A DNA stretch of 64,000 nucleotides from Candidatus Bathyarchaeota archaeon (GTDB lineage Archaea; Thermoproteota; Bathyarchaeia; TCS64). Location of the stretch: contig CAVYVF010000001.1 in NCBI GenBank assembly GCA_963771885.1, forward strand, positions 34,777 through 98,776, read 5' to 3'. A program made the position numbers and the translations under genes. Below, piece after piece: positions 472 through 64,000 of the stretch (position 1 is the stretch's first letter; the number at the start of each line of letters is the position of its first letter). Under the pieces are notes generated by a model, which was not told the origin of the DNA, ran no database searches, and saw only the letters and a list, made by a program, of their open reading frames with translations.

Positions 472-573
472 TCAGCTAATAATTATACAGTCGCGCGCGC
501 GTTCGTAACGTATTCATGCACTACAACCCTTTTAATGCGCAAAAGTTCATAATATGAGAAGGAGGCCTAAAAA

Positions 574-780
574 ATGGAAACCCTAGAATTATCCAAATGC
601 GAACTCTGCGGAAAGACTGGAGAAGACCTGACACTACTCGGAGTCAGACACAAAGAGTTAGGCTGGATCGAGATCTGTGGAGACTGCTGGAAAAACAGCT
701 ACAATGAAAATAGTCTAGTAGCCGGGACAGGCGGTAAAAGCGGGGGCTGCAGCGGCTGCTGTGGCTGCAAATCCTGCTAA
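574..780 (+). CDS. Small Cys-rich hypothetical protein
   Basis: GGAGG SD upstream; CELC, CGDC and a C-terminal GGCSGCCGCKSC tail. Confidence 0.7.
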   Translation: METLELSKCELCGKTGEDLTLLGVRHKELGWIEICGDCWKNSYNENSLVAGTGGKSGGCSGCCGCKSC

Positions 781-876
781 ACACAATTCTCTCGTCGCTC
801 CCCCTTAGGAAGCGAAACCCTATACGAGACCAACAAATATGTTGGCGTGCAATATTGAATTACACCAGTGCGATTT

Positions 877-1140
877 CTAACGCGCGCATGACATTGGAAC
901 GCCTAAGACAATCTCCCCAACCTTACCAATGCAATCGACTCTATGACACGCCGCCAACCCGCACCGACTCGCCCCGTCGAAAAACACTCCACCCAGGTTA
1001 CCCTCGCCGAGTGGCTCGTCGCAACATGCGCATACGAGCCTATTAGCCTCAAAATCCCCCAGCAAACTCGCCCTCTCAAGCAATACATGAAGATGCGTGC
1101 TCGGGTAGGCGAAGCTGCACAACTTTTCCCGCTGAACCAT
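877..1140 (-). CDS. Small hypothetical protein (CxxC)
   Basis: CACC and C..C motifs; ends within an ACGCGCGCATG tract. Confidence 0.45.
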   Translation of the reverse strand: MVQREKLCSFAYPSTHLHVLLERASLLGDFEANRLVCACCDEPLGEGNLGGVFFDGASRCGLAACHRVDCIGKVGEIVLGVPMSCAR

Positions 1141-1177
1141 AAACCGTAGCCATGTCCAAACCCCTTTTTGACCTTTA

Positions 1178-1198
1178 CGGATTTAACCATTAAATCCG
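1178..1198. promoter_or_regulatory. Perfect 9-bp inverted repeat, putative transcription-factor operator
   Basis: CGGATTTAA-CCA-TTAAATCCG between divergent ORFs. Confidence 0.4.
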
Positions 1199-1287
1199 CG
1201 CACACTTAAGGAGGGCAGAGCGCGAAGAATCCTCGTAAACGTCTTAGACATGCAGCTGCGCCAACTCCTACGCAATCCAAACCCAAT

Positions 1288-1890
1288 ATGTTTAAAGGAC
1301 ATCATGGTACACATTTTTTGATGATTCTGAATAAAGATGACACAATATTCTCGCTACTAGCCATAATGGTCTTCTTTGTTTTCATAACAACTTTTTTCGG
1401 AATCATGGCAAACCCACAGATTGAGTATGGTTTAGCCTCAAACATAACCGCCAACGACACAATAAATGTTGACGAATACATTCGAATCAACGTCACAGTG
1501 AAAAACGCTGGTTATCTTTTAAGTAGCACCAAGGTGACGGTGAGGTTCTATAACTTAACAAGTCAGAATCACGATTACCTAGCCATCGACAAGGGAAACT
1601 ATAGCGAACAAACCATACCCTTCGACCTCAACACAGGGGATACAAAGCAAAAACAAATTGAATTGACCTTCCTCCCAAAAGAAAACGCTAACAACCTAGT
1701 CCTCTACGCGTACGCCGCGAAGAATTATAGTGGCGACCTAGTTCAAAACTATGGCACAAGCTTCAGCACCATCACACTCACTGGGAAAAACGTGCTATTA
1801 TTGAGCAAAGAAGGCGAAATCTACAAGAAAGGTGGTCAAGAGGAATTTAACGAGCTTTTAAAAACGTACCCCAATCTCCTCAAACGATAA
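1288..1890 (+). CDS. Membrane-anchored hypothetical protein with Ig-like extracellular domain
   Basis: N-terminal TM helix; INVTVKNAG (CARDB-like) segment; many N-x-S/T sites. Confidence 0.65.
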   Translation: MFKGHHGTHFLMILNKDDTIFSLLAIMVFFVFITTFFGIMANPQIEYGLASNITANDTINVDEYIRINVTVKNAGYLLSSTKVTVRFYNLTSQNHDYLAIDKGNYSEQTIPFDLNTGDTKQKQIELTFLPKENANNLVLYAYAAKNYSGDLVQNYGTSFSTITLTGKNVLLLSKEGEIYKKGGQEEFNELLKTYPNLLKR

Positions 1891-1918
1891 TATTTACGCG
1901 TTAAAGAGTCGGCGTGCG

Positions 1919-2377
1919 TTATCGAATATTAGTTATTAGCCCGACCAAAATTGTAAACCAAGCCACGCCGAATATTACGGGTAGAAACTGGGTGACGTAT
2001 GACAGACTTAGATAAGGCCTCTTTTGGGCTAGTGACTCGATTTCAACATAGCACTTGAACCGGTCTAACTCGGCATCCAGTTTAATGACTTGCTCCCTCC
2101 ACCTCTGCTGGAAGTATACCGCACCCCTCATCACGAGGAACCAGACTAAAGCCACACCGAGGCCGAGCAGAGGTATGCTAAGGCTAAGAAGTTTTGGGCT
2201 CACCTCAAGCCCGGGATAAGTTACTACGAAGGCTGAGAAGAGGCCCGCATGCGCGACAAGAAAAAAGTTCGCTCGCGACCAGAACTCGCGGGTATCCTGC
2301 TTAAAATGGTCGACAACCATCTGATAGACGACGAGGTCGCTCACACATGTAGCATCTTTAGAGTCGCTCATACCCAT
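1919..2377 (-). CDS. Small multi-TM protein resembling RipA-family/SLATT-like membrane proteins
   Basis: FWSRANFFLVAHAGLF followed by a second TM and WREQVIKLD; start moved to the ATG downstream of a TATA-like box. Confidence 0.55.
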   Translation of the reverse strand: MGMSDSKDATCVSDLVVYQMVVDHFKQDTREFWSRANFFLVAHAGLFSAFVVTYPGLEVSPKLLSLSIPLLGLGVALVWFLVMRGAVYFQQRWREQVIKLDAELDRFKCYVEIESLAQKRPYLSLSYVTQFLPVIFGVAWFTILVGLITNIR

Positions 2378-4372: not shown

Positions 4373-4374
4373 GC

Positions 4375-4761: not shown

Positions 4762-4975
4762 CGGGCTATTCTTTCTAGTGTTAAGGTGCTTATTGCATTA
4801 TTGGAGGGCACGTAATGAACGTACACAGCGTCGAATGCACCTAGCGGCGTGCACGTACATAGAGGTAGACATCCACGAGCGTCCTAACCAGTACCAGAAT
4901 AACTAGGAAACCCATATTCCCCCGCGCGCGACTCTAGCGAGTGCGTTAGTAGGGACCCAATAGCAAACATACGAG

Positions 4976-7500: not shown

Positions 7501-7899
7501 ATAACGCAGAGCGCACAACAAACTCCATTTTTTACGTGCTTCTCATACACGTCGTGCGTATATGTAAAATCCGCATCAAACACCTTCAACGCAGTAAATC
7601 TTTAATCTAGACTGCAGAAACCCTACAAATTCAACTATACACAAACAGTTAATTTGTTTTCTACCAGGTGCATGCTTATGTTAGTTTATGCGAAATAAAA
7701 CTCGTTAAAAAAAAACGGAAGCAATCTTGACGCACTTGTATTATTCGATTAATCTGCATAGTAATTAACCTAATTATTGACGAAAAATTGATTAGTTCAT
7801 ATTAAATGCAATTGTTCTAAATATATGGGACAATTATATGATTAAAATATCGGAACATAACCACTCTTGGTTACCAATTACACTTTCGAGGTAGCGCCA

Positions 7900-10692: not shown

Positions 10693-11003
10693 ACTCTAAC
10701 CCTCAAATTATCTATAATATTCACGTGCGCACGAGTGTGGAAAAACAGAATTTTTCTGGAAATATATAAAAAAAAATAGCGCGCGCAAAATCAAGTCAGG
10801 CTTTACAGAACAGATAAGCAGGACGCATTTCAAGTTCTTCAAGTCCCTAGGATTGCCTCTCGAGAAGATTAACGGAGTATTCTGCGGGGGTGGCTTGGAT
10901 CAACTGGAACTAGTTCACGCGATTATCGAATAACTTTCGGATACGTACTTGCGCACGCATGAGCTCATCCTGTTGTAAGGATTGACATTCTTTAAAAAAA
11001 ATG

Positions 11004-16806: not shown

Positions 16807-16875
16807 CCAATTTTCGGATAATTAAACGCGTTTTTCTGAATTAGGTAGCGCGTACACTAGGTCTCGCGTGTATTA

Positions 16876-17739
16876 TTATACGCGCGCGGCGGGAGCCGTT
16901 ATTGTAAGCAAATCCTCACCTAAGACAACTTCACCAGTGAAGTCCCGCCTGACCTCCACAACCATCCTATCAAGTAGTTCACGGGGCTTCTCCCTAATGT
17001 GGGTGAGGACCAGCTTGGAAACCCGGGCGTAACATGCCAGTTTCCCGACCTCGAGAGAACTCAAGACGTGCTTCGAGATAAGCTTGGTATCGAAGTCGTT
17101 AACCTCCTCCCCAGAATAATAGCATCCCGCCACCATGATATCGGCGCCTCTAGAAAAATCGATAAGTTCTTCGCTGATGACCGCGTCACCCGTGATCACG
17201 GTACTCACTCCACCCTCTGAGACCCGGATTGCATGGCAAGGCCACTCATGCCTACTCAAGCCAAGCCCGTGACCGTGGTTAACATCACACACGTCCACCC
17301 TCCAACCGCCTTTAGAGATAACCTGCCCAGCCACAACATCATGCACCTTAACCATGTCACGTATATCGACCAGCCTCTCCGTGGTTAACGCCGTCTCCTG
17401 AAGCCTATACCAGATATCCCTCTCATGGGCATCCAGTAGACTCTTAACCATCGCAGAGGTACCCGCCGGCCCATAGACGTTTATAACCCTGTTCGTAGCC
17501 AGGTTCCAGCTGCTAAAAAGAAGGTCAGCCAACCCCGAGGTATGATCAAAGTGAAGATGGGTCAAAAATACATCACTGAATTCGGTCACCTTGACACCGG
17601 CTTGAACCAACTGAGTGGAGACACCACGCCCAGCGTCAACAATCAGGTTTCCCGAGTCGAGCCTCACCAAAACTGAAGGCCCCATCCTGTTGGGGTCAGG
17701 TCTAGGCCCACCTGTCCCAAGGAGAGTGATCCTCATCAA
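16876..17739 (-). CDS. MBL-fold metallo-hydrolase (RNase Z/arylsulfatase-like)
   Basis: ITLLGTGGP, THLHFDH, ITGD, LVLTH. Confidence 0.88.
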   Translation of the reverse strand: MMRITLLGTGGPRPDPNRMGPSVLVRLDSGNLIVDAGRGVSTQLVQAGVKVTEFSDVFLTHLHFDHTSGLADLLFSSWNLATNRVINVYGPAGTSAMVKSLLDAHERDIWYRLQETALTTERLVDIRDMVKVHDVVAGQVISKGGWRVDVCDVNHGHGLGLSRHEWPCHAIRVSEGGVSTVITGDAVISEELIDFSRGADIMVAGCYYSGEEVNDFDTKLISKHVLSSLEVGKLACYARVSKLVLTHIREKPRELLDRMVVEVRRDFTGEVVLGEDLLTITAPAARV

Positions 17740-18002
17740 ATACTCCTCGTCGTCCCACCTAATAACTCGCGCATGAATTTCGGTTAGACCCCGCGCGCTC
17801 CTGCGCGTATTCTTACGCTTTGGATAGTCTAATTACAATGACAGAACCATTTTGAGGAACGAACCGACAACGCATACGCGCATATCCAACATCGGGTTTA
17901 ATCATTAGGGTAAACTAGTTGCATTAACTATTTTCTTCGAATCACAAGTCCGAAAGAGTCGCCCCAACTCCTTTTAAATAATTATTAACCATATACCTCA
18001 CA

Positions 18003-24435: not shown

Positions 24436-25554
24436 ATGTCTGACTCGAAAACGAAGCCGAGGGCGAGAGACCTGGGCATCCCGCTCCAAGGTAGAACGGG
24501 GAAATACAACGCCATAACTGACGTTCAAGGCGTAACTGTGGGCCACGAAACCATCATCGCCGGCGAAGGCAAGCTCGAGGTAGGCATAGGCCCCATAAGA
24601 ACAGGCGTAACAGCCATACTCCCCAGAGCCGACCACAGCGACCCCGTCTTCGCCGCCTGGTCCTGCCTGAACGGAAACGGCGAGATGACGGGAACCACAT
24701 GGGTGGATGAATCAGGCTTCCTTAGCGGCCCCATATTGATAACAAACACCCACAGTGTCGGAGTCGTCCACGACTCGGTCATTGAGTGGTCGCAGAGAAC
24801 CCGAAAATCTAGGGTCGGCAACCCCTGGTCTCTGCCAGTAGTAGCCGAAACCTACGACGGCTTCCTGAACGACATAAACGGCTTCCACGTCCGAAGGGAC
24901 CACGTTTTCAAAGCCCTCAACAACGCCTCTGGAGGCCCAGTTGAGGAGGGAAACGTCGGCGGCGGTACGGGTATGATCTGCCACAAGTTCAAGGGGGGAA
25001 TCGGCACATCATCACGAACTCTACGCTTGGCAGACTCAGACTATGTGGTTGGGGCGCTAGTTCAGGCAAACTACGGGCTCCGTGAGCAACTAACAATCTC
25101 AGGAGTCCCAGTAGGCCAAGAGATCCCCGACCTCTTGCCCGTGGAGAATGGGCAAACACCTCGAGACGGCGAACAGGGATCCATCATAGTAGTGATTGCC
25201 ACCGACGCGCCTCTTCTCCCACACCAGCTTCGCAGGCTAGCCAAGCGCGCGCCAATGGGCATCGCGAGGGTCGGGGGAATTGGCGGCAACGGTTCCGGCG
25301 ACATATTTGTCGCGTTCTCCACCGCAAATCCACACGTGATGAGTGATAAGGAGGTGAAGACAGTTCAGATGCTCCCTAACGAGTTGATGACTGACCTCTT
25401 CCAGGCTACAGTCCAGGTAGTGGAGGAAGCTATCTTGAACGCCCTCGTCGCCGCGAGAACAATGACGGGCATAGATGGCAACACGGTCTACGCGATTCCC
25501 CATGAGCGACTCAGAGAAGTGCTTAGAAAATTCAATCGTCTAGCCAAAGAATAG
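24436..25554 (+). CDS. dmpA: DmpA/P1 (S58) family L-aminopeptidase/D-esterase
   Basis: RARDLG, NAITDV.GV.VGH, NGNGEMTG, EEGNVGGGTGM, GSIIVVIATDAPL, NGSGDIFVAFST. Confidence 0.92.
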   Translation: MSDSKTKPRARDLGIPLQGRTGKYNAITDVQGVTVGHETIIAGEGKLEVGIGPIRTGVTAILPRADHSDPVFAAWSCLNGNGEMTGTTWVDESGFLSGPILITNTHSVGVVHDSVIEWSQRTRKSRVGNPWSLPVVAETYDGFLNDINGFHVRRDHVFKALNNASGGPVEEGNVGGGTGMICHKFKGGIGTSSRTLRLADSDYVVGALVQANYGLREQLTISGVPVGQEIPDLLPVENGQTPRDGEQGSIIVVIATDAPLLPHQLRRLAKRAPMGIARVGGIGGNGSGDIFVAFSTANPHVMSDKEVKTVQMLPNELMTDLFQATVQVVEEAILNALVAARTMTGIDGNTVYAIPHERLREVLRKFNRLAKE

Positions 25555-25621
25555 ATACGAATCTACCAAGCCTCAGCGCGCGCAGGTGACTGACATTAGT
25601 TTTATTAAAAAATGGAGTAAA

Positions 25622-30114: not shown

Positions 30115-30263
30115 TCTGTCTACTGTGCGCGCGACATTAGCATATTTTACTAAAAGCGCGCGGATGAGCCTATGGAATCCACAATGCATTGTAGACAAGT
30201 GTGCACGTAGATTGAGGTTAAGCTAGGGGTCCATTCAACCCTCGCGCTAAGGTGTCGCGCGCG

Positions 30264-30758
30264 TTAAAGCCCGATTTTATACTCATAAACTACCCCGTCA
30301 AGCCAGACACCATTCAACTCCACAGCCTTCTTCTTATAATCTACCGCTCTGAAGAAGAGCTTCTCAAGAACCCTCGTCGATGGCCTGTTTTCAGGGCTTG
30401 CCTCAGCTACGATGCGGTGCACACCCGATGCAAGGAGGTGACGGACCAGTGTGCGGACCGCGTCGGTGCAGACGCCCCTCCCGCGCGCCGGCGGAATTAC
30501 TCTGTACCCTATCTGATACGAGCCGTCATCTTGAAGACGGGCGACTATCTGCCCCACCTTCTCGCCGTCTTTAGTCTCGATCACATGCCAAAGAACCCCC
30601 GGCTTTTCTCGGGGCAGCCAACTATCGAGTTCGCCGCGGGTCACGGGCTCGAATGGCTCGTAGCGCCCAGTGTATTCGGGATCATTCCCCCATACGTAGA
30701 GGAAGTCGGCGTCCCCTGTATCGAAGGGGCGTAAATTTACCTTGTCTCCCTTGATCAA
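30264..30758 (-). CDS. GNAT (RimJ/RimL-type) acetyltransferase
   Basis: IGYRVIPPARGRGVCTDAV; N.PS.RVLEKL. Confidence 0.9.
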   Translation of the reverse strand: MIKGDKVNLRPFDTGDADFLYVWGNDPEYTGRYEPFEPVTRGELDSWLPREKPGVLWHVIETKDGEKVGQIVARLQDDGSYQIGYRVIPPARGRGVCTDAVRTLVRHLLASGVHRIVAEASPENRPSTRVLEKLFFRAVDYKKKAVELNGVWLDGVVYEYKIGL

Positions 30759-32609: not shown

Positions 32610-32740
32610 ATGTTTAATAATTTGAATGAAAAACGAGAAGTTTCCAATACACGATCAGATCCATCAAGCGCAATATATCCCGGTATCCTGATTGTTGAGA
32701 ATAACGAGAGAGAATCACGTCTAATGAAAATCGCGCGCGC
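32610..32740 (+). pseudogene. Truncated response-regulator receiver fragment
   Basis: ILIVENNERESRLMKIA (receiver beta1-alpha1); similarity stops at CGCGCGCGC 32732-32740; divergent from the kinase. Confidence 0.5.
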
Positions 32741-37017: not shown

Positions 37018-37242
37018 TCAATCACCATGATCAGGCATCTTGAACCACGCGTGTATTGGGCGATGTTTGATACATTGTAATTGATCTTAATCGTCCTTAT
37101 CATTTTAATAGAATCTGCTTAACATGCGGGTGAGTCCTCTATGGCGCGCGCGGTTTGAATCTTTTAATCTTGGGCATTTTTTGTTTAGCTTAATGATTTT
37201 TCATTCTCAAAGCTTAGATTTATCAACGCTTACCTTTCTACC

Positions 37243-39655: not shown

Positions 39656-39686
39656 TCATCTTGTTGCGCGCGAATGAACACCGGAT

Positions 39687-39968
39687 TCAATCGCTGTTTT
39701 CTACATCAACGTATTGAAATGCTATTTCCATTAATTCGATGAACTGTTCTCCCTTAGAAGAAATTTTGTAAACCTCATCAGCTATCAATGGGTTCTCCGA
39801 TTCGCTCTTCTTAATTAGTCTCTCCGAGACGAGCGGATCCAAAGCATCTTTCAGATCCTGTCTTGATAGCCTCATGCATTTAGCTAGATCTTCGCAACTA
39901 CATGTACCCCCCTTGACCTGAGTTAGTATTTCGAGGTAAAACTCGAATTTCGACCTGTGATGATACAG
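39687..39968 (-). CDS. ArnR1-like winged helix-turn-helix protein, probable CTG start
   Basis: Extension LYHHRSKFEFYLEILTQVKGG; YKISSKGEQFI; TTTATAT about 25 bp upstream; paralogue of 18003..18302. Confidence 0.78.
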   Translation of the reverse strand: MYHHRSKFEFYLEILTQVKGGTCSCEDLAKCMRLSRQDLKDALDPLVSERLIKKSESENPLIADEVYKISSKGEQFIELMEIAFQYVDVENSD

Positions 39969-40641: not shown

Positions 40642-41418
40642 CTAGTTAGTTAAATCCAGTATCTCGGCAATCGAGGCGTTTCTCTTTACGGACTCGATAC
40701 CATTCAGCCTGTCTCCTGGATTGGTGTAGCCTTGGCTAACCGCGATAATCTCGTTATTCGCGGCGATGAGCCTGAACCTATATTCGCCACCTGAGTCCCT
40801 ATAGGTCTCAAATCTGGCTCTAAACACGAGCCCCTTGGTCTCAGACTCCTCAATCGGGGCATAAGCAGCTATCCTCTTAACGACTTCAACCCCATTTATG
40901 CAGCCGTTAAGATTTTCATATGACTCACTGGCAGCGATGATCAAATGATTTGGTGCCTTAAGCCTAAATCTGAACCCGCCCGCCTTATCCTCATAGACCT
41001 CGAATAGCGGCTCTGACTCTCTTGGGAGACTGACGTCTGAGAATCTGGCATCGCTTATGTTTATGTCGTGATCGTTATGGAGAGAATAGAATACTCCAAG
41101 TGGTTTTAGGGCACGATCAATTTTCTGTATTAGGAGAAGTTGATCCTCTAGGTCCGGGGTTTTGTACCAGTTGAAGGAAAAGTCGTATTCTCCGATCTCT
41201 GCGTGGTATTTGTCGATTAATGTGCTACATCTTTCTTCAGTTATTCCGCCAAATGATCGGAAGTAGCTCATTATCCCTTCTTGGTTGTCAAACATTGGTT
41301 GACTCAATGCAATGTATGGGTCCATTATACAGACTTGTGGTGTTTTGATAGAGATAGCTTCGAGCGCCTTGATGGCTTTCCCGAGTGGGGGTCCCATTAT
41401 CTTTACATAAGTCTTCAA
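40642..41418 (-). CDS. Fusion of an archaeal unknown domain with tandem YegP/DUF1508 domains
   Basis: Two FE.Y.D..G..RFRL.A.N..IIA.S..Y...NG.E.VK repeats at the C-terminus. Confidence 0.8.
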   Translation of the reverse strand: MKTYVKIMGPPLGKAIKALEAISIKTPQVCIMDPYIALSQPMFDNQEGIMSYFRSFGGITEERCSTLIDKYHAEIGEYDFSFNWYKTPDLEDQLLLIQKIDRALKPLGVFYSLHNDHDINISDARFSDVSLPRESEPLFEVYEDKAGGFRFRLKAPNHLIIAASESYENLNGCINGVEVVKRIAAYAPIEESETKGLVFRARFETYRDSGGEYRFRLIAANNEIIAVSQGYTNPGDRLNGIESVKRNASIAEILDLTN

Positions 41419-41557
41419 AGAGGATCAATATTTTTTTCTTCACCGTGAATAATAAAGGTGAGCTACCCCGCCCTTTAGTCAATCTAGCAAGGCGGTTTTA
41501 GTTATTCAGAAAGACTCGAAGTGCCAGATAAGATTAATTATTCCTATTAGCACATCG

Positions 41558-42247
41558 ATGATCATGCCCTTCTGTATCCACTGTGGAAAACCCGTTATAT
41601 CAACAGACAAATTTTGCGGAAATTGTGGGAAGCCCGTCTCGAACTCTCAAGAAACAGGAATTTCGGAAGTTAAATCGGCGTCATCTTCCCAATTAAAGAC
41701 CTCTGAAGTAGCTGTTAGCGTAGTCGCCACCAACTCACAGCCAAACTTTGTTGGATCAGCGGGTAAACCCCTCCCATCAGTTGAAACGATGAAGATGATC
41801 GTCCCAGACCAAGTAAGGATCTATGGATTTGGAAAGTCAGACACATTCAACCTCATCATTACGACTCATAGGAGCATATTTGCCAAACTCACGAAGAACA
41901 TTAAGGAGCAGGCCCAAAAGAAGATGAATGAGAAAATGGACGGGGCGAAGATGAATAGAGTGATCAAGTGGATGGCTAAACGAATCGATTACAGCGCCTT
42001 CCTTAACTGGTATGCTGAGAAGACGCCTCAGGAGGTCTTGGATGAAACTCCCGGCAACTACGCCATTGATAACATTGACATCATTGACGTGACGGTTAAT
42101 GATAATAGCGTTGATTCGGAGGAGGGAGGCAAGATCGCTGACTATGAGCTGGTTATTACTACTCGGGAGAAAACACTGAAGTTTAAGTCAATAATTAACC
42201 CGACTAATGTTCGGGGCCAGAGCATATACAACGCTTATAAAAATTAA
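41558..42247 (+). CDS. Zinc-ribbon domain protein
   Basis: FCIHCG...KFCGNCG. Confidence 0.8.
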   Translation: MIMPFCIHCGKPVISTDKFCGNCGKPVSNSQETGISEVKSASSSQLKTSEVAVSVVATNSQPNFVGSAGKPLPSVETMKMIVPDQVRIYGFGKSDTFNLIITTHRSIFAKLTKNIKEQAQKKMNEKMDGAKMNRVIKWMAKRIDYSAFLNWYAEKTPQEVLDETPGNYAIDNIDIIDVTVNDNSVDSEEGGKIADYELVITTREKTLKFKSIINPTNVRGQSIYNAYKN

Positions 42248-42707
42248 TGCTCCTTTCAAAGTACCTGCACACGCGCGCAGAATTCTCGGCAGTTAGATTC
42301 AGCTTCGATTTACGTTTAATAAATTAAAGGCAGTTGCGGAGCCACGATACATCACTGTAAAATGCGCGCGCACGCCACAGCCATTTTAGGAAGCCTGTGA
42401 ATTTAGGCCACTCCTATTTCTACCGTGCAATTATTGCCCACCCGAGTAAGCCAAGGTGAAAGTTTTTATCCACAAACTCCGCGCTGTTCTCTTAGCCGTG
42501 TCGCGCGCGTGAGCTCAGAGAACAGAGACATTTAACATACTCGTCCCCGATGGCGAGTGGCACGACGGGGCTAGATCTGCGCGCGCATCTTTACCTTTTT
42601 CAAATACATTACTTTGCTTAATAAAATGGGAAAAAATCGGACAAATTTATAGTATGATTATATTTTACTATACAAAACTAATATAAATTACCGTTTATTA
42701 CAAACAT

Positions 42708-42953
42708 ATGGTAATTCTGATGGCTGAGGTTGTAATAGTGTTAATGATGCTTGAGCCCGACACAGAGAGAGATGTATTAGAAAAACTTCGTGTTCTTTCA
42801 AACGTCTCAGAAGCCCATTTTCTATATGGCCCTTATGATGCATATGTCAAAGCTGAGGCTAAAACTACTGCTGAGCTTGAGAAACTTGTTTTAGATAATA
42901 TTCGTAGCATTAAAGGTGTGAGATCAACGACAACTTGTTTTGTAGCAGATTAG
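42708..42953 (+). CDS. Lrp/AsnC ligand-binding domain protein
   Basis: EAHFLYGPYD...IRSIKGVRSTTT. Confidence 0.88.
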   Translation: MVILMAEVVIVLMMLEPDTERDVLEKLRVLSNVSEAHFLYGPYDAYVKAEAKTTAELEKLVLDNIRSIKGVRSTTTCFVAD

Positions 42954-42980
42954 CCACAAGCGAGTAACCCCGTCCGGGGC

Positions 42981-43285
42981 TCAGCCGATGAATCGCCAAC
43001 CGGTCATCGGTGTGACTGCTACAGGGGCAGTGGAGTTGATCTCGTGGGTGTAGGCGCCCATGCTGGGGTCGTCGGCCCAGACCTTATGCAGGCTCCGGTT
43101 AGAATGTTCTTGACTTGGCTGAACCTCGCCCTCAGCGACCTGTCCTCATCTAACTGGATTGTGATGGGGTTTGTGTAGTCTCTCGTCGAGTTATTGATGA
43201 TCCAGCAGTCGAAGCTCCAGCCTAGGGATGGTATGGCTTCAATCCTGCTGGAGTTTCCCTGATTAAGAAAGTAGCTGCCGGCCTC
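42981..43285 (-). pseudogene. Fragment of a surface protein with InlB-B/Flg_new-like repeats
   Basis: GSYFLNQGNSSRIEAIPSLGWSFDCW..NPITIQLDEDRSLRARF, then after a frameshift GAYTHEINST..VTPMTGWRFIG*; no start codon; begins at CGCGCGCG 43285. Confidence 0.65.
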
Positions 43286-43495
43286 GCGCGCGTGGGTGCA
43301 TGCATTATTTGATCATATTTGCAGATTATTTAATGAAAATGGATTAATGATTCGTAATTATTAACGATAAAAGTAATTAATATGTGTAATCGTACTGTCT
43401 GATAGACGCAAAAGTTCAAACGCTTTTAAAAAGTGTTAACCAACGATAGCTCAGGTCTTATTTATTTAGCCAACTTTTTCTTAGGAGAGGGTTTA

Positions 43496-43650: not shown

Positions 43651-43908
43651 ATTTAAAGGACAATTAATTCTTAATAAGGATTCATAAAAGGAGGTGAAGT
43701 TATGTGCTTTTCGCGCGCGCGGTCGAAGTAGTCAAGCGCATACGCCTCTATCCTCAATTGTACCGTTTGGGTTGGATGCCTTTGGCATCGTTTTACTCGG
43801 TGCCTCGGTCTTCGTCTTGTGGAAGAACCCTTAGTGTTTCCTCGGGTGCACGTGGAGTGAGGGCTTAGGAAGATGCTCCGAGCACAGTTCATATTTTCTT
43901 GTGTTGAT

Positions 43909-44385: not shown

Positions 44386-44498
44386 CTCATTTTTTTTAAC
44401 ATATTATGTGAAGATAAGTAAAGTGGATTATTCATATGGATAATTCATCAGATGCAAACTCGGGGATACAGGCGCCTTTACGCGCGCATAAAGAGAAC

Positions 44499-46446: not shown

Positions 46447-46704
46447 TTAGAAAGGACACACACACGCGGGGATACCGTTTGAGGCGTGGAATTTTAACAG
46501 GTAGTTCTGAGCTGGCTTGAATGAATAGTCCTGCACGTCATCGATCCTAATTATCACTGGCGGTTGTTTTCCTACGTTGTGATCTGTTGGGCTTGTTTCG
46601 CTTGATCTCTGGACTAAGCCAGCTGAGTAGAATCCGATGACTGCGCTACTTGTAACCAGGATGGCGATTGTAGCAGCTAGTATGATTCTCTCTATAGGCG
46701 CCAA
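46447..46704 (-). pseudogene. N-terminal fragment of a polysaccharide deacetylase/DUF2334-like protein
   Basis: TM then VIIRIDDVQD..LLKFH..GIPA, cut off by the GCGTGTGTGTGT tract. Confidence 0.6.
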
Positions 46705-47202: not shown

Positions 47203-47300
47203 AATAAGCCAGTGGCTTCGCTCGCGTGTGGTCATTTCTTTTCTAGTGCACGCGCGCCACGTATATGTCCTCACTATAGCCGCACGCACTCAATCACACT

Positions 47301-49889: not shown

Positions 49890-49962
49890 GCGCGCGCATC
49901 CAATCATCTTCTTAGTATTAAATGGAAGTGAGGATAAGAAAAAAAGTCTATGCGCATACAAC

Positions 49963-51467: not shown

Positions 51468-51525
51468 TAAGTTTTGTTTCCATAAGTGAAAAGGCGTTCC
51501 TAGTTCGCTGAGGCGAGGGGCGACG

Positions 51526-52042
<517 letters not shown>

Positions 52043-52095
52043 CGCGTGCATTAGAGGAGATTATTTAATGTATAAAATGGGATAAGCTACATCTG

Positions 52096-54441: not shown

Positions 54442-54589
54442 TAGGGTTCACCAAAACCTATCTACGCGATTCATGATTTAGCACTTCTCGCACACCTGTC
54501 GTGCGTGAACTGATGGAATATATTGAGATCTGATTCGCGCGCGCGAGAATGTTTATTTCACTATGACCATTATTTTGTATGATTCTAAG

Positions 54590-55114: not shown

Positions 55115-55386
55115 GCGCGGTCCTTTACGTAATATTTCGATAACTAATTTTTACGCACTCGAACAAGTAATCTAGTTCCGATTTAAGGGCTAAGTCAATC
55201 CGCGAAGAGTTTATCGTATGGGCGTAGATTCCAGTTCGCATACATGTGTGCGCGGCGTTTTAGTCATCGCTATTCTTTGGGAGAGGCTTCTAGTTGAGCG
55301 CGCGCAATGTGTGTCGGAAGTATGAGTGTTGGGAGTTGGTGTGGAGTGGGACTAGGTCGATATAAGAGGAATTGTCATGCGGTGGT

Positions 55387-55938: not shown

Positions 55939-56454
55939 GGTTCAAGATGGGGTTGGATGGATAAGCGTCTTTCTGGGGTGCGCGCGCCCTTCAGGTGTCG
56001 AACGGCGTCGCCTAGTCCGATATCTTGGAGCTACAGATCGGGAGGCTGTCCGTGTCTGGTGATCAGTTGAAGAGTATCGAACCTTACATCCAGGAATTCA
56101 TCCAGGATAGGGCCGATGGCAGGATGCGCGCGCAAATCTGTATCCTTCTTTAGCGGCGAGGTAAGTGTAGACACTAGGGTACCTCAGGAAGTCGGCCTAA
56201 CGCCACCCTAGACGCGATATCTTACGGCTTATTGTGCTGTATCTATGTTTGGGGTATTACGATTGTTTAGAATCAACTGTCCATTTCCTTTATATGGTTT
56301 ATTTTTAGAGTGGAATAATTGCTGACGGGAGAACCATCAGAATATTTTGGAGTGAAATAGATTGCGCGCGCACTCGCATAATTTTGGGAGAAACAATGGG
56401 TCCTCGGAGGTGTTACTGGAGAGTAAAAACGTATGCGCTCGATTGGAGAAGTAT

Positions 56455-56643: not shown

Positions 56644-56784
56644 GCCTCATCGATAGAGAATTCAGTAGAGAGCTACAATTTGCGCCTGCGCATGCATTAG
56701 CCTTACGAATGCATCTCGTATCGGGTTGAACACGCGCGAGGAGAATAATACTCTGACAGAGGCACGCACACAAAGTCTTATTCT

Positions 56785-59700: not shown

Positions 59701-62368
59701 ATCAACCGACTGGCAAAAAACAATAGGCGGTATTAACTGGACAAGAGACCTCCTGAAAGCCCTGCCCAAGAACCCTCCCGGTGAATTGATCACCATCGTA
59801 ACCAATCCCTCAATCATTAAACCAAAGCTTGACTCGGAGAGATGCCTCAGAGAGATATATCGCCTCATTGACGAATTGAACTCCAGATTCAGTAGCCCCC
59901 TATGGGCAGCGGAGGCTCGGAGCCTCACTGTGGATGACGTTCAAAATGTGTCGGGGAAGATCGCACGCAGAATCGATGACCTTCAAGCCTGGGTGGACTT
60001 CAACAACACCTATGCGAGACTGATTGATGAAGGATTAGGTATTTTCGTCAAGGAACTTGTCGAGAAGCAGTTCAAACGAGTTGAACTAGTCGATTTATAC
60101 CGAAAAAGCATCTATGGCGGTCTACTTAACCGCTTTTCAGAGGAAGACTCAACTCTGGGAGCCTTCAGGGCGAGTAATATGGATCAGGCGGTCGAGGAGT
60201 TCCGAGCTCTCGACTCCGCCCTTATCGAAGAGGCATCCACCAAGGTCATACTGGCAGCAAATGCGAAGAAGCCTCAAGGTGTCTTCGTTGAGGCACCAGA
60301 CTCCGAGATCAGTATACTGCTCCGGGAGGCCTCGAAGAAGCGGAGACAGATGCCTCTACGTCAACTACTTAGCAGGATACCCAACCTGGTGAGGCGGCTG
60401 AAGCCGTGCTTCCTGATGAGCCCGATCTCCGTCAGCCAGTTTATACTACCCGACAAACTTCACTTCGACCTAGTCGTCTTCGATGAAGCCTCCCAGATAT
60501 TCACCGAAGACGCTATAGGCTCCATCTATAGGGGAGATACAATTATCGTCGCAGGAGACAACAAGCAACTCCCACCAACCCCATTCTTCCAATACATAGC
60601 CGACAGTGATGGCGACTGGGATGAGGAAACGGGGGACATTGGGGTATATGATAGCGTACTCGATGAGTGCATGGGCATGGGGCTCCCAGTGAGCATGTTG
60701 CGGTGGCACTACAGAAGCAAGCACGACTCACTAATAGTATTCTCCAACAAGGAGTTCTACGACAACAGACTCGTCCTATTTCCCTCAGCCCTTACAAGAG
60801 CCGCGGAGTTAGGAATAGAATTCATCTACGTACAAGACGGCGTCTACGACCGCGGGGGAGTACGCAATAACCCAAGGGAAGCCGAAGTCGTGGCTGACCT
60901 CGTCCTTCGTCACCTCTCAGAGCACCCAGACAAGTCCCTAGGCGTCATGACCTTCAGCATTAGCCAGATGAACACAGTTAGAGATGAAATAGAGTCCCGC
61001 TTCGCTGAGAAACCAGGCCATGAAAAGTTCCTACAGGAAGATCGCCTCAGAGGCTTCTTCGTAAAGAACCTAGAGAACGTGCAAGGTGACGAGAGAGACG
61101 TCATGATCATTGACGTAGGGTATGGCCCCGACAAGAACGGAGTCATGACGATGAATTTCGGACCACTCAACTCCTTGGGTGGAGAACGAAGATTAAACGT
61201 CGCCATAACTCGGGCACGTGAGAAAGTGATCCTCGTCAGCTCAATCAAATCAGGGCACATCGACCTATCCTCAACGAAATCAATTGGCGTAAGATGTTTA
61301 CACGATTATCTCGCCTACGCAGAACTCGCATCAATGCTTGAGCGAGAACGTAATGAGGTGACGCCAAGATCAGAGATCGAGAGAGAAGTCTCTGATGCCA
61401 TTCGATCGCTAGGCTATATTGCAGTCTCTCAGGTGGGCGAAAGCACGCTCAGGGTAGACATCGGCGTTAAAACCTGTGAAAACCCCGACAGATTCATACT
61501 CGGAATTTTACTCGACGGGGAAGGCTACCGTTCAACAGCTACAGCCAGAGACAGAGATAGGCTTAGGGAACAAGTACTTGAGGGAATGGGGTGGAATCTG
61601 CACAGAATATGGTCCCCCGAATGGGTTCAGAGGCGTGACACTGAGGTTGAACGCCTCGTGCAGGCGATTAAAGACGCTGAGAGGGGTAGAAGACGACCAA
61701 TAACAAGACAAAACTCAACCAACCAGAAGAAGAGAGGACTCGAACAAGAGAAAGTAATAGAGAGGAAAGGTAATCAGCTACCCGGATCAGAGCCCTACAA
61801 GAAGGCCGCCCTTATCCCCGCTCACACTTTCAACAACATACCATCAGCTCAGAGGGATCTATACTTAGACCTCTACAGGCTGGAAGTCAGGAACCTACTG
61901 CCAAAGATTGTAAACTCGGAAGGACCAATACACGTCGAGTACGCGTTCACTCGCGTAAATAAGGCTGTGAGCTTGAAACCAGCTCCGGCTGCATTTCACA
62001 AAGTGTACAATCGAGTCATAGATGAGCTTGAATCAAAGGGCAGATTTGAGAGACGTGGGGATTATCTGTGGTCAAATAGGGCAACGGGCGTCAAGGTGAG
62101 GGTACCCGTTGATGGGCCGGAAGGCGAAGTTAGGCCTATTGAGTATATTCCACCTGAGGAGGTTGATGCTGCCATTCTACACGTTCTAAACCACTCGATG
62201 GGACTCAGCGAGGAGTCTCTACTGCTTGGAACCGCCAACGTCTTTAAGATTAGACAGACTCGAAAAACTCTGAGTATACTAGAGAGACAACTAGACAAGC
62301 TGATAGAGAGTAAGAAGATTCTTCAAGTTGGGGAAATCCTATCGATCGCGCTAAAAGGAGAGGCTTGA
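56785..62368 (+). CDS. DUF4011 + SF1 (Upf1-like) helicase + Vsr/MTES_1575-like + DUF3320 protein, Hhe-like (one frameshift at ~59306)
   Basis: WKLRLIDLTKRN, LDADSSQ, QGPPGTGKSQTI, FDEASQ, GD.KQLPP, WHYRS, NVQGDERD, RLNVAITRA, RDRLR..L..MGW.L.RIWS, EGPIH. Removing one A in CCTAAAACTT joins both ORFs. Confidence 0.9.
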
Positions 62369-62462
62369 TTCTCGGATTAATTTATTAAAAAAAGTAATTT
62401 GTTTGACATTTTTCATACACACGCATCGTTATTTTCACGATTAATATAGATTAATTGGTGAA

Positions 62463-62684
62463 ATGGGGATGCAGGATCAAAGTGAAAGCGAGACGAATGT
62501 CCTGCCTTCATGGGTCTTCGACTCTAAAGTCAGAGATTTTCTCGGATCCGAGGGGATTGAGATAGTCATTCTAGAGGACGTTAAATTTAGGCGTGGTAAA
62601 AGCACTAAACCTCTAGTGATTCTACGCGGCTTGAGTTCATCAATTCAATCTTACCTCTACGTGCATGGGCGCCAAAGTCAATGA
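62463..62684 (+). CDS. Small hypothetical protein
   Basis: GGTGA SD; 73-aa ORF. Confidence 0.4.
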   Translation: MGMQDQSESETNVLPSWVFDSKVRDFLGSEGIEIVILEDVKFRRGKSTKPLVILRGLSSSIQSYLYVHGRQSQ

Positions 62685-62817
62685 AGGTGCGGTTTAGGGT
62701 ATTTCGTTAGGTTCGGGAATATCAGTTAAACATTAGTGCGTGTGTCGACTCGGGTGCGAGAGTTTCCATGTATATTTGGAAAAGTTTAATCCCTCAATTG
62801 ATATTGTAAGTATAACA

Positions 62818-63102
62818 ATGGGCTTCTTTGGTAGCGTTTGGAAATGGATTACAAGTCAAATCCCTACATGGGAGCAGGCTACAGATTGGAATTATTGGGT
62901 TCCTTCATGGGAGCAGGTGAAAGATTGGCATTATTGGGTTAGGCCTTTGGTGATAATTGGTGGGGTGATTATGGTGGGGGTAGGACTTGCTTCGCCCCCA
63001 TTTGTCTGGGTATGGGAACATGGGACCGATTACTTGATTGACTCATGGGATTATTGGTGGTGGTGGATAAATAAAGTACTTAATGGAGGTTTCATGAAGT
63101 GA
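62818..63102 (+). CDS. Trp-rich small membrane protein with internal 13-aa duplication
   Basis: 15 Trp in 94 aa; PTWEQATDWNYWV/PSWEQVKDWHYWV; one TM. Confidence 0.65.
   Translation: MGFFGSVWKWITSQIPTWEQATDWNYWVPSWEQVKDWHYWVRPLVIIGGVIMVGVGLASPPFVWVWEHGTDYLIDSWDYWWWWINKVLNGGFMK
62863..62940 (+). repeat. 39-bp imperfect tandem duplication
   Basis: cctacatgggagcaggctacagattggaattattgggtt / ccttcatgggagcaggtgaaagattggcattattgggtt. Confidence 0.85.
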
Positions 63103-63410
63103 CTCGCGCTCTCATTCTTCGGTGAGGCAGGACCACCACCTACGCGCATAATGTGCTCTTCCCATCCGAAACGTGCGCGCGTGGGGGTGCAGTTCGTATG
63201 ACATCACGTTACTGCCAGAGAGGATAGGGAGTGCCATCAGACTATGACCTCGGCGACCTCCTCATAATTGGTGGTCTTTGACGGTCGCCTCGACTGTTTC
63301 CCTGTAGAGTTCAATGGTAATCTTATGTTCCGGAGGTGATTGGAGTTTGTCGGCGTGTAATAGTTGAGTCAGCTTTAATAGAGGTAGTTCTATGTCTCTT
63401 CTTGATATGG

Positions 63411-63950
63411 ATGAGTTCTAAGGCTCCAGTTAATCGGCATGTGGTTTGGAGTGGCAGGCCCTGGATACTACCTTATGTGTTATTCAGGACTGCGCTCGTC
63501 GCCGCGGTAGCTGTTGGTGTGGCCATTGTGGAGAGTATGCTCGGTGTGTTGTACTCTCCTCTACAGTTTGGCTTGTCTGTTGTTGCTTGGACGGTCGTCG
63601 CCTTTTTTGGGGTCTGGGTCTTGTGGGTGCTGAGCTTGCTTGCTCTCTGGGGGACGCATTTGTATGTCTTGAGGGAGGATAGCCTCGAGGTGAAGGTCGG
63701 TTTGCTCACCACGAAGACGTCAATGATAGCGCCAACTGGTTTCTCGGATCTCGAGGTGATCCGGTCAATTGTTGGCAGGTTGTTGAATACTGGAGACATT
63801 CTGGTGAGGACTCAGAGTGAAAAGGACTTTGTTAGGCGGATGGTTAAGGTACGGGACCCCGATCGCGTCGCCTCCTTGATCAGGGAGGTTATGGCGAGGC
63901 CGATTTTTAGAATCGACGAGCGCGACCCGCGCTCGAGTGAAAAGGTGTAA
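63411..63950 (+). CDS. Bacterial PH (bPH_2) domain membrane protein
   Basis: WSGRP, two TM, GRLLNTGDILV, VRDP. Confidence 0.8.
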   Translation: MSSKAPVNRHVVWSGRPWILPYVLFRTALVAAVAVGVAIVESMLGVLYSPLQFGLSVVAWTVVAFFGVWVLWVLSLLALWGTHLYVLREDSLEVKVGLLTTKTSMIAPTGFSDLEVIRSIVGRLLNTGDILVRTQSEKDFVRRMVKVRDPDRVASLIREVMARPIFRIDERDPRSSEKV

Positions 63951-64000
63951 TGCTGCACACGTGCGCATTCGATAGACCCATCCAAGATAGCGCGATGTAT

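What the first reader, a model, noticed from the sequence alone, without database searches (positions are those of the whole stretch)
492..63968. Intergenic code of (CG)n / alternating purine-pyrimidine tracts at nearly every gene boundary
Seen: almost every spacer between transcription units, though AT-rich, holds one or more RY-alternating tracts with a GCGCGC, ACGCGT or GTGCAC core, roughly 80-90 tracts of >=7 bp by eye. Nineteen pure (CG)4+ tracts sit at or between gene boundaries; I saw only one deep inside a CDS (25245, dmpA). At 25% per base the two 8-mers CGCGCGCG/GCGCGCGC are expected about twice in the whole 64 kb, and far less often in the AT-rich non-coding fraction. Many tracts lie 0-25 bp after a stop codon (471->492, 25554->25576, 30114->30124, 33141->33143, corrected HerA stop 39655->39665, 63950->63954). 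They are absent from overlapping operon junctions (nrdD-nrdG, the DUF6282 pair, eda-kdgK). Established: such tracts are the best Z-DNA formers under negative supercoiling and are self-complementary. Inference: this is an undescribed genome-wide signal, such as a recombination or insertion site for gene cassettes, a chromatin-protein or terminator/insulator site, or a Z-DNA torsional sink.
Basis: partly seen in the sequence, partly recalled or inferred. Interest (0 to 1): 0.9.

Follow-up and report, generated by a model that had tools for sequence, protein, structure and literature searches.

The report
CG-rich alternating tracts marking DNA joints
The spacers between genes of this uncultured sediment archaeon hold far too many short alternating C-G stretches, and these sit where pieces of DNA have been cut out, inserted or swapped between strains, so they look like seams of a shuffled genome, not gene-control signals.

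Summary
The window holds 20 pure (CG)n tracts of 8-10 nt. Sixteen lie in spacers, against 0.36 expected from dinucleotide shuffles. Perfectly alternating purine-pyrimidine (RY) runs of 12 nt or more number 15 against 2.5. ORFs are at chance. Only 34 of 61 window spacers carry a tract, and about 10% genome-wide.

The tracts have no flanking motif, no palindromy beyond alternation and no fixed distance to starts or stops. They are not repeated elements. Only alternating repeats are enriched ((CG)4 24x, (CA)4/(TG)4 2-4x, (TA)4 2.4x, (GA)4/(TC)4 1x).

The assembly, a Bathyarchaeia bin, holds two strains. Of 120 sharp homology breakpoints, 27 lie within 3 nt of a CG-cored tract (5.4 expected; four control features 0.4-1.5x). 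In one clean case GCGCGCGCGC replaces 2,078 nt, truncating a gene, and the longer allele has no tract at either end. In two cases tracts flank the extra segment. A contig from another sample joins window 41084 to 43404 through CGCGCGCG.

Best reading (0.55): seams of the flexible genome, written as filler at some joints and reused as self-complementary microhomology at others. A tuned Z-DNA switch is poorly supported (no gyrase found, lowest density between divergent genes).

This scan noted the same on other Bathyarchaeia DNA. I found nothing in print.

The parts
492..502 (.). RY tract CGCGCGCGCGT, 20 nt after stop of ORF 196-471
880..890 (.). RY tract ACGCGCGCATG, 12 nt from stop of ORF 903-1205(-)
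4923..4930 (.). (CG)4 in spacer 4762-4975
10722..10733 (.). RY tract CACGTGCGCACG, 29 nt after nrdG-like stop
10779..10787 (.). GCGCGCGCA in convergent spacer
10950..10961 (.). RY tract TGCGCACGCATG, same spacer
16848..16857 (.). RY tract GCGCGTACAC
16877..16888 (.). TATACGCGCGCG, overlapping last codons of ORF 16876-17739(-)
17870..17885 (.). 16-nt RY tract ACGCATACGCGCATAT in divergent spacer
25245..25252 (.). GCGCGCGC inside peptidase S58 CDS, the only one deep in a supported gene
25576..25584 (.). GCGCGCGCA, 21 nt after stop, convergent spacer of 67 nt
30124..30133 (.). TGTGCGCGCG, 9 nt after stop
30256..30264 (.). CGCGCGCGT abutting stop of GNAT ORF 30264-30758(-)
32732..32740 (.). CGCGCGCGC in divergent spacer
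37046..37056 (.). RY tract CACGCGTGTAT
37144..37152 (.). GCGCGCGCG, 90 nt before HerA-like start
42266..42279 (.). TGCACACGCGCGCA, first of four tracts in spacer 42248-42707
42362..42375 (.). ATGCGCGCGCACGC, second of four
42502..42511 (.). CGCGCGCGTG, third of four
42578..42588 (.). TGCGCGCGCAT, fourth of four
41085..43403 (.). 2,319-nt stretch that one contig of run X4 lacks; in that contig CGCGCGCG stands between the two sides
   Evidence: tables 5 and 5c (one contig, depth 3.8, shorter side 46 nt)
43285..43294 (.). CGCGCGCGTG (GTGCATGCAT follows); a contig of run X1 loses likeness 11 nt beyond, at 43316
43712..43721 (.). (CG)5 in a small unsupported ORF
44479..44490 (.). TACGCGCGCATA in divergent spacer
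46456..46468 (.). ACACACACACGCG; two contigs of run X1 lose likeness inside it (46457, 46466)
47246..47257 (.). GTGCACGCGCGC in 98-nt convergent spacer; a contig of run X2 loses likeness at 47249
49890..49899 (.). GCGCGCGCAT
49949..49960 (.). TATGCGCATACA, 2 nt from a stop, at the edge of homology with contig C17
52971..52986 (.). 16-nt CGCGCGTGCACGCGCA in divergent spacer
54536..54545 (.). (CG)5, 17 nt before nitroreductase ORF start
55237..55254 (.). 18-nt CGCATACATGTGTGCGCG
55298..55306 (.). GCGCGCGCA
55978..55987 (.). GTGCGCGCGC
56124..56134 (.). ATGCGCGCGCA
56363..56373 (.). TGCGCGCGCAC at the first codons of an unsupported ORF
56687..56697 (.). TGCGCATGCAT
63141..63150 (.). TACGCGCATA
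63171..63183 (.). ACGTGCGCGCGTG
63954..63968 (.). TGCACACGTGCGCAT, 3 nt after stop of ORF 63336-63950

Best explanation
The tracts are the seams of this lineage's flexible genome. They are short, self-complementary, perfectly alternating pyrimidine-purine stretches, mostly CG, that stand at the joints left by illegitimate recombination (deletion, insertion or swapping of gene-sized segments). Shown: sharp homology breakpoints coincide with them. At one joint the tract is extra DNA that neither parental flank holds. At other joints a tract stands at both ends of the extra segment and once in the shorter allele. Inferred: (1) during end joining, 3' ends are extended with alternating C and G, less often other Y and R letters; (2) two such tails can pair with each other in any register, because (CG)n is its own complement, so any two ends can be joined; (3) once present, a tract is ready-made microhomology for the next event, so tracts breed tracts; (4) joints survive only where they do no harm, which is why tracts fill spacers, lie close behind stop codons and avoid the 25 nt before start codons; (5) point changes then erode them quickly. 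The enzyme is unknown.
For: Breakpoint association. All-against-all blastn of the assembly (508 HSPs) shows that the bin holds pairs of contigs 90-97% alike (C10/C20, C5/C6, C14/C15, C2/C3, C7/C21). Of 120 breakpoint pairs of HSPs at 80% identity or more, 27 have a CG-cored RY tract within 3 nt in at least one copy, against 5.4 expected. Control features at the same breakpoints: RY runs without a CG core 12 against 7.8, non-alternating G/C runs 5 against 13.6, A/T runs 13 against 9.5, purine or pyrimidine runs 15 against 13.6. By age: 13 of 49 breakpoints at 90% identity or more, 14 of 71 at 80-90%, 9 of 370 at 60-80%, with chance about 2.7%. In 21 of the 27 the tract is in one copy only.

Filler case. 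C10:22657-22666 GCGCGCGCGC replaces C20:10073-12150 (2,078 nt). That stretch holds a binding-protein gene and residues 1-127 of a 146-residue PNPOx gene. C20 has no tract at either end.

Tract-to-tract cases. Segments of 2,199 and 595 nt in C6 have a tract at both ends, and C5 has one tract there, with HSPs overlapping by 8-9 nt.

Patchwork. A 134-nt copy of a C23 stretch sits in a C2 spacer with a tract on each side.

In the window. A contig of run X4 joins 41084 to 43404 with CGCGCGCG between (table 5c). Three of the 24 loose ends shown fall inside tracts: 46457, 46466 and 47249.

Orthologous PGK loci lose all likeness just past the stop codon, and 6 of 10 have an RY tract within 30 nt there. 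L079 and L067 share TGCGCGCG 9 nt after the stop and then diverge.

Consistent with seams and not with signals: unique flanks, no flanking motif, no positional rule, location in long spacers (median 299 against 94 nt), and fast turnover.

A Ku, LigD primase-polymerase and ligase-phosphoesterase operon is present.
Against: Only one joint is a clean de novo filler. In 3 of the 12 two-sided events no tract is present, and a fourth has (CA)4/(TG)4 ends instead. 93 of the 120 breakpoints have no tract.

Direction cannot be told without an outgroup, so tracts could be fragile sites that attract breaks and not products of joining.

The L038/L080 pair differs at a tract by 16 substitutions and no indel, which is not an insertion.

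Long mixed tracts such as TGTACGTGTGCATGCGCACA are hard to derive from pure (CG)n by decay. Strain differences in run X1 are only about 1.7 transitions per transversion, so the process would itself have to write mixed RY sequence.

Ku does not track tract abundance. Genus g13 has Ku in 0 of 3 genomes, one of them a single contig, yet 98-250 GCGCGCGC. Genus g5 genomes with and without Ku overlap, at 4-34 against 2-45.

The evidence inside the window itself is thin: one contig of depth 3.8, and loose ends taken from a shown subset of 24 of 69.

The breakpoint statistics come from other contigs of a mixed bin (contamination 6.66%), and BLAST ends are exact only to a few bases.
Confidence: 0.55

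Rival explanations
1. Neutral simple-sequence DNA. The tracts are degenerate dinucleotide microsatellites ('cryptic simplicity') that grow by replication slippage in unconstrained spacers and erode by point changes. Breakpoints fall at them only because such DNA is fragile.
For: No positional rule and no flanking motif. Location in long spacers. Fast turnover between loci 95.5% alike. ORFs at chance.
Against: (GA)4/(TC)4 are not enriched, at 17 against about 21 expected, while (CG)4 is 24 times expected. General slippage does not predict this. Run lengths form two components and not one geometric decay: runs of 4-7 nt are at 0.92-0.97 of expectation and runs of 13-16 nt at 5-13 times. No 2-nt length differences at tracts appear among the 12 indel rows shown for four runs, though 19 rows were not shown. 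The 10-nt tract that replaces 2,078 nt is not slippage. Pure CG tracts stop abruptly in this genome: 18 of 10 nt, none of 11-14 nt and one of 15 nt in non-coding DNA.
Confidence: 0.2
2. Selected structural element. The tracts are Z-DNA-prone flipons, or sites for a protein that reads alternating YR steps, and act as supercoil sinks, domain insulators or chromatin marks between transcription units.
For: Perfect alternation without any sequence or palindrome constraint. Enrichment order CG much greater than CA/TG, which exceeds TA, with none for GA/TC; this is the order of Z-forming propensity as I recall it from Ho et al. 1986. The tract component has a constant GC of about 0.6 at all lengths from 9 to 16 nt. 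Prokaryotes in general suppress GC6, GC8 and RY12 patterns (PMC4060949, passages read), so an excess needs a cause.
Against: No GyrA was found in a 92% complete assembly, so there is no obvious source of global negative supercoiling. Density is lowest in divergent spacers (25.2 per 100 kb) and highest in convergent ones (46.8), the reverse of a negative-supercoil sink. Most tracts are 8-12 nt, short for B-Z transition. They are not conserved between close relatives. No z-alpha match was found, though that search rang in no control genome and so says little. A function would not by itself explain why tracts stand exactly at strain-specific joints.
Confidence: 0.12
3. Target sites of an unrecognised mobile-DNA enzyme. 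A transposase or integrase makes staggered cuts in (CG)n-like palindromes and duplicates the target, so each insertion adds a tract.
For: Two segments (2,199 and 595 nt) are flanked by near-identical tracts where the other strain has one. A 134-nt fragment is flanked by tracts. Several tracts often share one spacer.
Against: The segments have no terminal repeats or transposase of their own. No Y1 transposase and no PF00589 recombinase were found, and Cas1 appears only as a partial match. The C10/C20 joint has a tract only in the shorter allele.
Confidence: 0.1
4. Artefact of sequencing, assembly or binning.
For: The window has probable single-base indel errors (table 4). The bin mixes strains and GC classes.
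Against: Tracts are shorter than assembler words. Contigs of four other runs cover tract-bearing parts of the window (table 8). The same excess is seen in other genomes of the genus and family and in metagenome contigs from other projects.
Confidence: 0.01

Closest known systems
Filler or N-type insertions at end-joining junctions (bacterial and archaeal Ku/LigD NHEJ; Pol theta terminal-transferase insertions, PMC4912351, abstract seen in a search listing only)
   Same: Extra letters stand at a deletion joint that neither flank encodes. A Ku, LigD primase-polymerase and ligase-phosphoesterase operon is in the genome.
   Different: Known fillers are random or copied from nearby DNA. Here the filler is one defined kind of sequence, alternating CG or YR of 8-16 nt. 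Ku presence does not follow tract abundance across the family.
REP/BIME elements with RAYT transposases (recalled; PMC4690160 seen in a listing only)
   Same: Abundant, G+C-rich, self-complementary, intergenic, often behind stop codons.
   Different: No conserved sequence, no stem-loop beyond alternation, only 8-23 nt long. No Y1 transposase found.
Integron attC sites and attC clusters without an integrase (CALINs)
   Same: Sites stand at the borders of gene-sized segments that differ between strains.
   Different: attC sites are 57-141 nt structured sites read by a tyrosine integrase (recalled). Here the tracts are tiny, the genes point both ways with their own spacers, and no PF00589 match was found.
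Z-DNA flipons and RY boxes (for example the alternating purine-pyrimidine box of the Halobacterium bop promoter; recalled)
   Same: Perfect purine-pyrimidine alternation with CG, CA/TG and TA steps.
   Different: No tie to promoters, lowest density in divergent spacers, no gyrase found.
DRT3b, a reverse transcriptase that makes alternating poly-(dCdA) without a nucleic-acid template (PMC13174585, summary and passages read)
   Same: It shows that an enzyme can enforce alternating pyrimidine-purine addition by itself, which the filler reading needs.
   Different: It is a bacterial defence enzyme whose product is free DNA, not genomic joints. No RVT_1 match was found in this genome.
Alternating purine-pyrimidine tracts in Nitrososphaera spacers, and (CG)n joints in other Bathyarchaeia
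   Same: The same kind of tract, the same intergenic excess and, for Bathyarchaeia, the same tie to rearrangement joints.
   Different: Those are unchecked AI notes on other genomes. Here the joint association was measured with controls in this assembly.

Membership tests
Z-DNA flipon (supercoil-driven B-Z switch) | Alternating purine-pyrimidine sequence with CG > CA/TG > TA preference | tested here: met
   RY runs of 13-16 nt are 5-13 times expected in non-coding DNA. (CG)4 is 24x, (CA)4/(TG)4 2-4x, (TA)4 2.4x, (GA)4/(TC)4 1x.
Z-DNA flipon (supercoil-driven B-Z switch) | A source of negative supercoiling, and enrichment where it accumulates (divergent promoters) | tested here: not met
   No GyrA match in the 92% complete assembly. 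Density per 100 kb: divergent 25.2, tandem 32.1, convergent 46.8.
Z-DNA flipon (supercoil-driven B-Z switch) | A Z-alpha-type reader protein | tested here: inconclusive
   No PF02295 match, but the search rang in none of 14 control genomes.
Z-DNA flipon (supercoil-driven B-Z switch) | The left-handed form actually adopted | not testable with these tools
   Needs chemical or antibody probing.
REP/BIME with RAYT | Conserved imperfect palindrome of about 20-40 nt forming a stem-loop | tested here: not met
   The longest palindrome in 485 RY runs equals that of alternation-preserving shuffles, 6.09 against 6.07. Flanks show no consensus.
REP/BIME with RAYT | Y1 (IS200/IS605-like) transposase in the genome | tested here: not met
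   No PF01797 match; the control rang in 6 of 14 genomes. The assembly is 92% complete.
Integron attC / CALIN | Structured attC site of 57-141 nt, and cassettes in one orientation | tested here: not met
   Tracts are 8-23 nt. Flanking genes lie on both strands.
Integron attC / CALIN | Tyrosine integrase | tested here: not met
   No PF00589 match at E <= 0.001; the control rang in 14 of 14 genomes.
Dinucleotide microsatellite | Growth by slippage: all unit types affected, and unit-length polymorphism | tested here: not met
   (GA)4/(TC)4 are at chance. No 2-nt indels at tracts in the 12 indel rows shown, 19 rows not shown. Most long tracts are not pure repeats.
End-joining filler | Letters at a joint that neither parental flank holds | tested here: met
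   GCGCGCGCGC replaces 2,078 nt at C10:22657-22666 against C20. CGCGCGCG stands between window 41084 and 43404 in a contig of run X4.
End-joining filler | Dependence on the known NHEJ machinery (Ku/LigD) | tested here: not met
   The operon is present. But Ku was found in 21 of 61 genomes of the order and does not follow GCGCGCGC counts.

The most novel reading that the evidence does not exclude
This family of Bathyarchaeia has a dedicated, undescribed way of joining DNA. Ends are tailed with alternating pyrimidine-purine letters, mostly CG. Such tails are their own complement, so they act as universal sticky ends, or as a duplicated palindromic target. This lets single genes and fragments be cut out, inserted and swapped without a site-specific integrase, and leaves a (CG)n seam at each joint.
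Probability: 0.25. Interest if true: 0.85.

Novelty: new variant of a known kind. Interest (0 to 1): 0.7.

Why it matters
Surveys report that prokaryotes as a rule suppress (CG)n and alternating purine-pyrimidine runs (PMC4060949). Here they are 24-44 times too common between genes and stand at strain-specific joints. If the seam reading holds, it points to a sequence-defined form of illegitimate recombination that builds the flexible genome of a very abundant sediment and soil archaeal group. It would also give a simple sequence mark for finding recently moved DNA in their genomes. And it names a testable biochemical activity, alternating C/G tailing of DNA ends.

Tried and rejected
Fixed position relative to genes: none.

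Flanking motif, TATA box or T-run at a set distance: none.

Palindrome or hairpin reading: no excess over alternation.

Repeated mobile element (MITE): window spacers are unique, with 4 unrelated short hits.

Known RNA families in the window: 0 at gathering score.

B-Z energy threshold as a length limit: tract composition does not change with length, so there is no support. The energies were recalled, not looked up.

Pseudogene remnants in long spacers: only small conserved ORFs turned up.

Aligning spacers with relatives: genus genomes are only about 70% alike in genes and not syntenic. PGK loci from genomes and metagenomes align only within the gene.

C5 cytosine methyltransferase: no match.

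Reverse transcriptase and Prim-Pol: no match.

Ku as the responsible system: present but uncorrelated.

RNA data: no RNA holder listed among 21 runs, so transcript ends could not be examined.

Parts of the window without contig cover in runs X2-X4 say nothing.

Literature: three full-text searches found no paper on (CG)n or RY tracts in Bathyarchaeia spacers or as archaeal joint filler. Subscription journals and supplements were not searched.

Full report
WHAT IS THERE. The window is G000:C1:34777-98776 of a 2.46-Mb, 23-contig assembly. Relatives found with its phosphoglycerate kinase are titled Bathyarchaeota or Bathyarchaeia MAGs. The window has 48.5% G+C and a normal CG dinucleotide level (observed/expected 0.97). 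It holds 20 pure alternating C/G tracts of 8-10 nt. Contig C1 has 40 hits to the two 8-mers, against 1.7-2.3 expected.

With a crude greedy-ORF gene model, 22 of 26 tracts on C1 lie outside ORFs, 89 against 5.4 per 100 kb. The same contrast holds on every large contig. In the 61 window spacers of 30 nt or more, dinucleotide-preserving shuffles give these comparisons: 0.36 (CG) tracts of 8 nt or more against 16 observed, 2.5 RY runs of 12 nt or more against 15, and 14.6 tract-bearing spacers against 34. ORFs are at chance.

An unbiased ranking of all 6-mers and 8-mers in non-coding DNA puts GCGCGC, CGCGCG and RY-alternating variants (CGCGCGCA, GCGCACGC, CGTGCACG) on top. This holds in both the low-GC and the high-GC contigs. 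'Nearly every boundary' does not: 34 of 61 spacers here, and 207 of 2,138 genome-wide for (CG) tracts of 6 nt or more.

ANATOMY. The pure CG tracts are the extreme of a wider family. Perfectly alternating purine-pyrimidine runs in non-coding DNA are at 0.92-0.97 of expectation at 4-7 nt. They rise to 2x at 10-11 nt and 5-13x at 13-16 nt. The 182 runs of 12 nt or more are all different, mixing CG, CA/TG and TA steps, with G+C of about 0.6 at every length from 9 to 16 nt.

The tracts are no more palindromic than alternation alone gives, 6.09 against 6.07 nt. Among dinucleotide repeats only the alternating ones are enriched: (CG)4 205 against 8.4, (CA)4/(TG)4 22 against 7.3, (TA)4 31 against 12.8, (GA)4/(TC)4 17 against 20.8. 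In this genome pure CG tracts stop at 10 nt, with 18 of 10 nt, none of 11-14 nt and one of 15 nt. Relatives have a few of up to 18 nt.

The 40 nt on either side show no motif. Window spacers are unique DNA, and no Rfam family matches. Tracts sit in long spacers (median 299 against 94 nt) without a preferred distance to genes. Against random placement in the same spacers they are mildly enriched 0-10 nt behind stop codons (10.9% against 6.6%). They are depleted in the 25 nt before ORF starts (7.6% against 13.7%). Density per 100 kb is 46.8 in convergent spacers, 32.1 in tandem ones and 25.2 in divergent ones.

WHERE ELSE. In the genus, 10 of 12 other genomes have 46-429 CGCGCGCG. The two with one hit each are about 35% G+C. 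In a 49% G+C member (G011), sampled spacers hold 37 CGCGCG/GCGCGC against 2.1 expected. Across 61 genomes of the order, 50 of 52 family members have the 8-mer, with counts from 0 to 512. Seven of the eight genomes of three other families have none and the eighth has one, although the two I sampled are about 55% G+C.

Twenty DNA runs from 14 studies hold parts of the window, and contigs of four of them cover it. So this is not a platform artefact.

Surveys report GC6, GC8 and RY12 patterns as generally suppressed in prokaryotes (PMC4060949, passages). A preprint reports archaea about 1.7-fold enriched for predicted Z-DNA overall (10.64898/2025.12.30.697008, passages).

TURNOVER. Orthologous PGK loci from other metagenomes, 80-84% alike within the gene, lose all likeness just outside it. 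Even so, 6 of 10 have an RY tract within 30 nt after the stop (no null computed, and the lineages are not independent). L079 and L067 share TGCGCGCG 9 nt past the stop and then diverge. L038 and L080 are 95.5% alike over 1.9 kb, but a 33-nt patch right behind the stop differs at 16 positions without any indel, and only L080 has a tract there. Three loci keep a tract before the start codon that varies only by transitions. So the tracts are numerous but short-lived.

THE JOINT TEST. Two leads pointed to recombination joints. The first came from my read laying. One contig of run X4 joins window 41084 to 43404 with CGCGCGCG between (tables 5 and 5c). Contigs of other strains lose likeness inside tracts at 46457, 46466 and 47249 (3 of 24 loose ends shown; 45 not shown). 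The second lead was a set of earlier unchecked notes of this scan on other Bathyarchaeia.

I tested the idea in this assembly. It turns out to hold pairs of contigs 90-97% alike, that is, two strains (contamination 6.66%). Of 257 non-coding HSP ends, 10.5% fall inside a CG-cored RY tract, against 1.8% of all non-coding positions. Of 120 breakpoint pairs of HSPs at 80% identity or more, 27 have such a tract within 3 nt, against 5.4 expected. Four control features give 0.4-1.5 times expectation. The share rises with recency: 9 of 370 at 60-80% identity, 14 of 71 at 80-90% and 13 of 49 at 90% or more. In 21 of the 27 only one copy has the tract.

Twelve events could be resolved on both sides.
- In one, GCGCGCGCGC replaces 2,078 nt that hold a binding-protein gene and most of a PNPOx gene, with no tract at either end of the longer allele. 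This is a deletion with de novo filler.
- In two (2,199 and 595 nt), near-identical tracts stand at both ends of the extra segment and once in the shorter allele.
- Five more have a tract at or within about 10 nt of a joint in one allele. One of these is marginal, and two share a boundary.
- Three small indels have none.
- One 556-nt insert has (CA)4/(TG)4 inverted ends.
A C2 spacer is a patchwork in which a 134-nt copy of C23 DNA is flanked by tracts.

MECHANISM. I therefore read the tracts as seams, written as filler at some joints and used as crossover or insertion microhomology at others. They persist where joints do no harm. (CG)n is its own complement in any register, so two tailed ends could always pair. 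This step is inference.

A Ku, LigD primase-polymerase and ligase-phosphoesterase operon exists on C23. But Ku was found in only 21 of 61 genomes of the order and does not follow tract abundance. No Y1 transposase, PF00589 recombinase, reverse transcriptase or Prim-Pol was found, and Cas1 only in part. The enzyme is unknown. DRT3b shows that a polymerase can enforce alternating addition without a template (PMC13174585, passages). That is an analogy only.

RIVALS. The Z-DNA switch reading has the composition order in its favour. Against it are the missing gyrase, the spacer-type order, short lengths and lack of conservation. Plain microsatellite slippage fails on the absence of (GA)n excess and on the two-component length curve, but fragility of such DNA could explain part of the breakpoint association. 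A target-duplicating mobile enzyme fits the two flanked segments but not the filler case. Direction of events (filler against target) cannot be settled without outgroups.

LIMITS. The gene model is crude. The strongest evidence comes from other contigs of a mixed bin, and evidence in the window proper is one low-depth contig and a few loose ends. Kin are not independent. GC was known only for sampled relatives. No RNA data were available.

VERDICT. This is a real, strong, lineage-wide sequence feature. It is best explained as recombination seams, not as a regulatory code. The mechanism is not in print in the library I searched.

Noticed in passing
window 38094, 38682, 38933, 39590 (also 40496, 44557): Contigs of up to three other runs lack one base at each of these places (table 4). 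The first four lie where the HerA-like gene is split into ORFs 37243-38103, 38057-38695, 38748-39029 and 39118-39717. So the window probably carries single-base insertion errors or very recent frameshifts. nrdD (7867-8757 / 8762-10021) and the helicase (56785-59391 / 59267-62368) are split in a similar way.
   Followed up: partly
whole assembly G000: Contig G+C ranges from 0.44 to 0.58. Several contig pairs are 90-97% alike, and contamination is 6.66%. The bin mixes at least two related strains, and the window's contig belongs to the low-GC minority, where tracts are densest.
   Followed up: partly
G000:C23:379320-382859 (L088): A complete bacterial-type NHEJ operon: LigD primase-polymerase (289 aa), Ku (323 aa), and ligase plus 3'-phosphoesterase (435 aa or more). 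Ku was found in 21 of 61 genomes of the order, all within one family.
   Followed up: partly
G000:C7:118245-118802: A 556-nt insert is absent from contig C8. It is bounded by CACACACAC and TGTGTGTG in inverted orientation, and the two homology blocks overlap by 17 nt. This looks like a small non-autonomous mobile element with a target duplication (event 7).
   Followed up: no
L038:3226-3258 against L080:166-198: A 33-nt patch directly behind the PGK stop codon differs at 16 positions, 7 of them C in L038 and T in L080, while the surrounding 1.9 kb is 95.5% alike. This is either local hypermutation or a short-patch replacement.
   Followed up: no
window 51528-51973: A dense internal repeat inside ORF 51500-52051(-), which has no Pfam match. 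It blocked read laying.
   Followed up: no
window 571-777 (+): An unannotated small ORF in the 'spacer' 472-902, with relatives on contigs C17 (54% identity over 65 aa) and C7. My ORF model misses such small genes.
   Followed up: no
G013, G015 and six more genomes of three sister families: GCGCGCGC and CGCGCGCG are absent or nearly so, and CGCGCG is absent from 44 kb sampled at about 55% G+C, where about 10 are expected in ORFs. This is strong avoidance, the opposite of the window's family.
   Followed up: no
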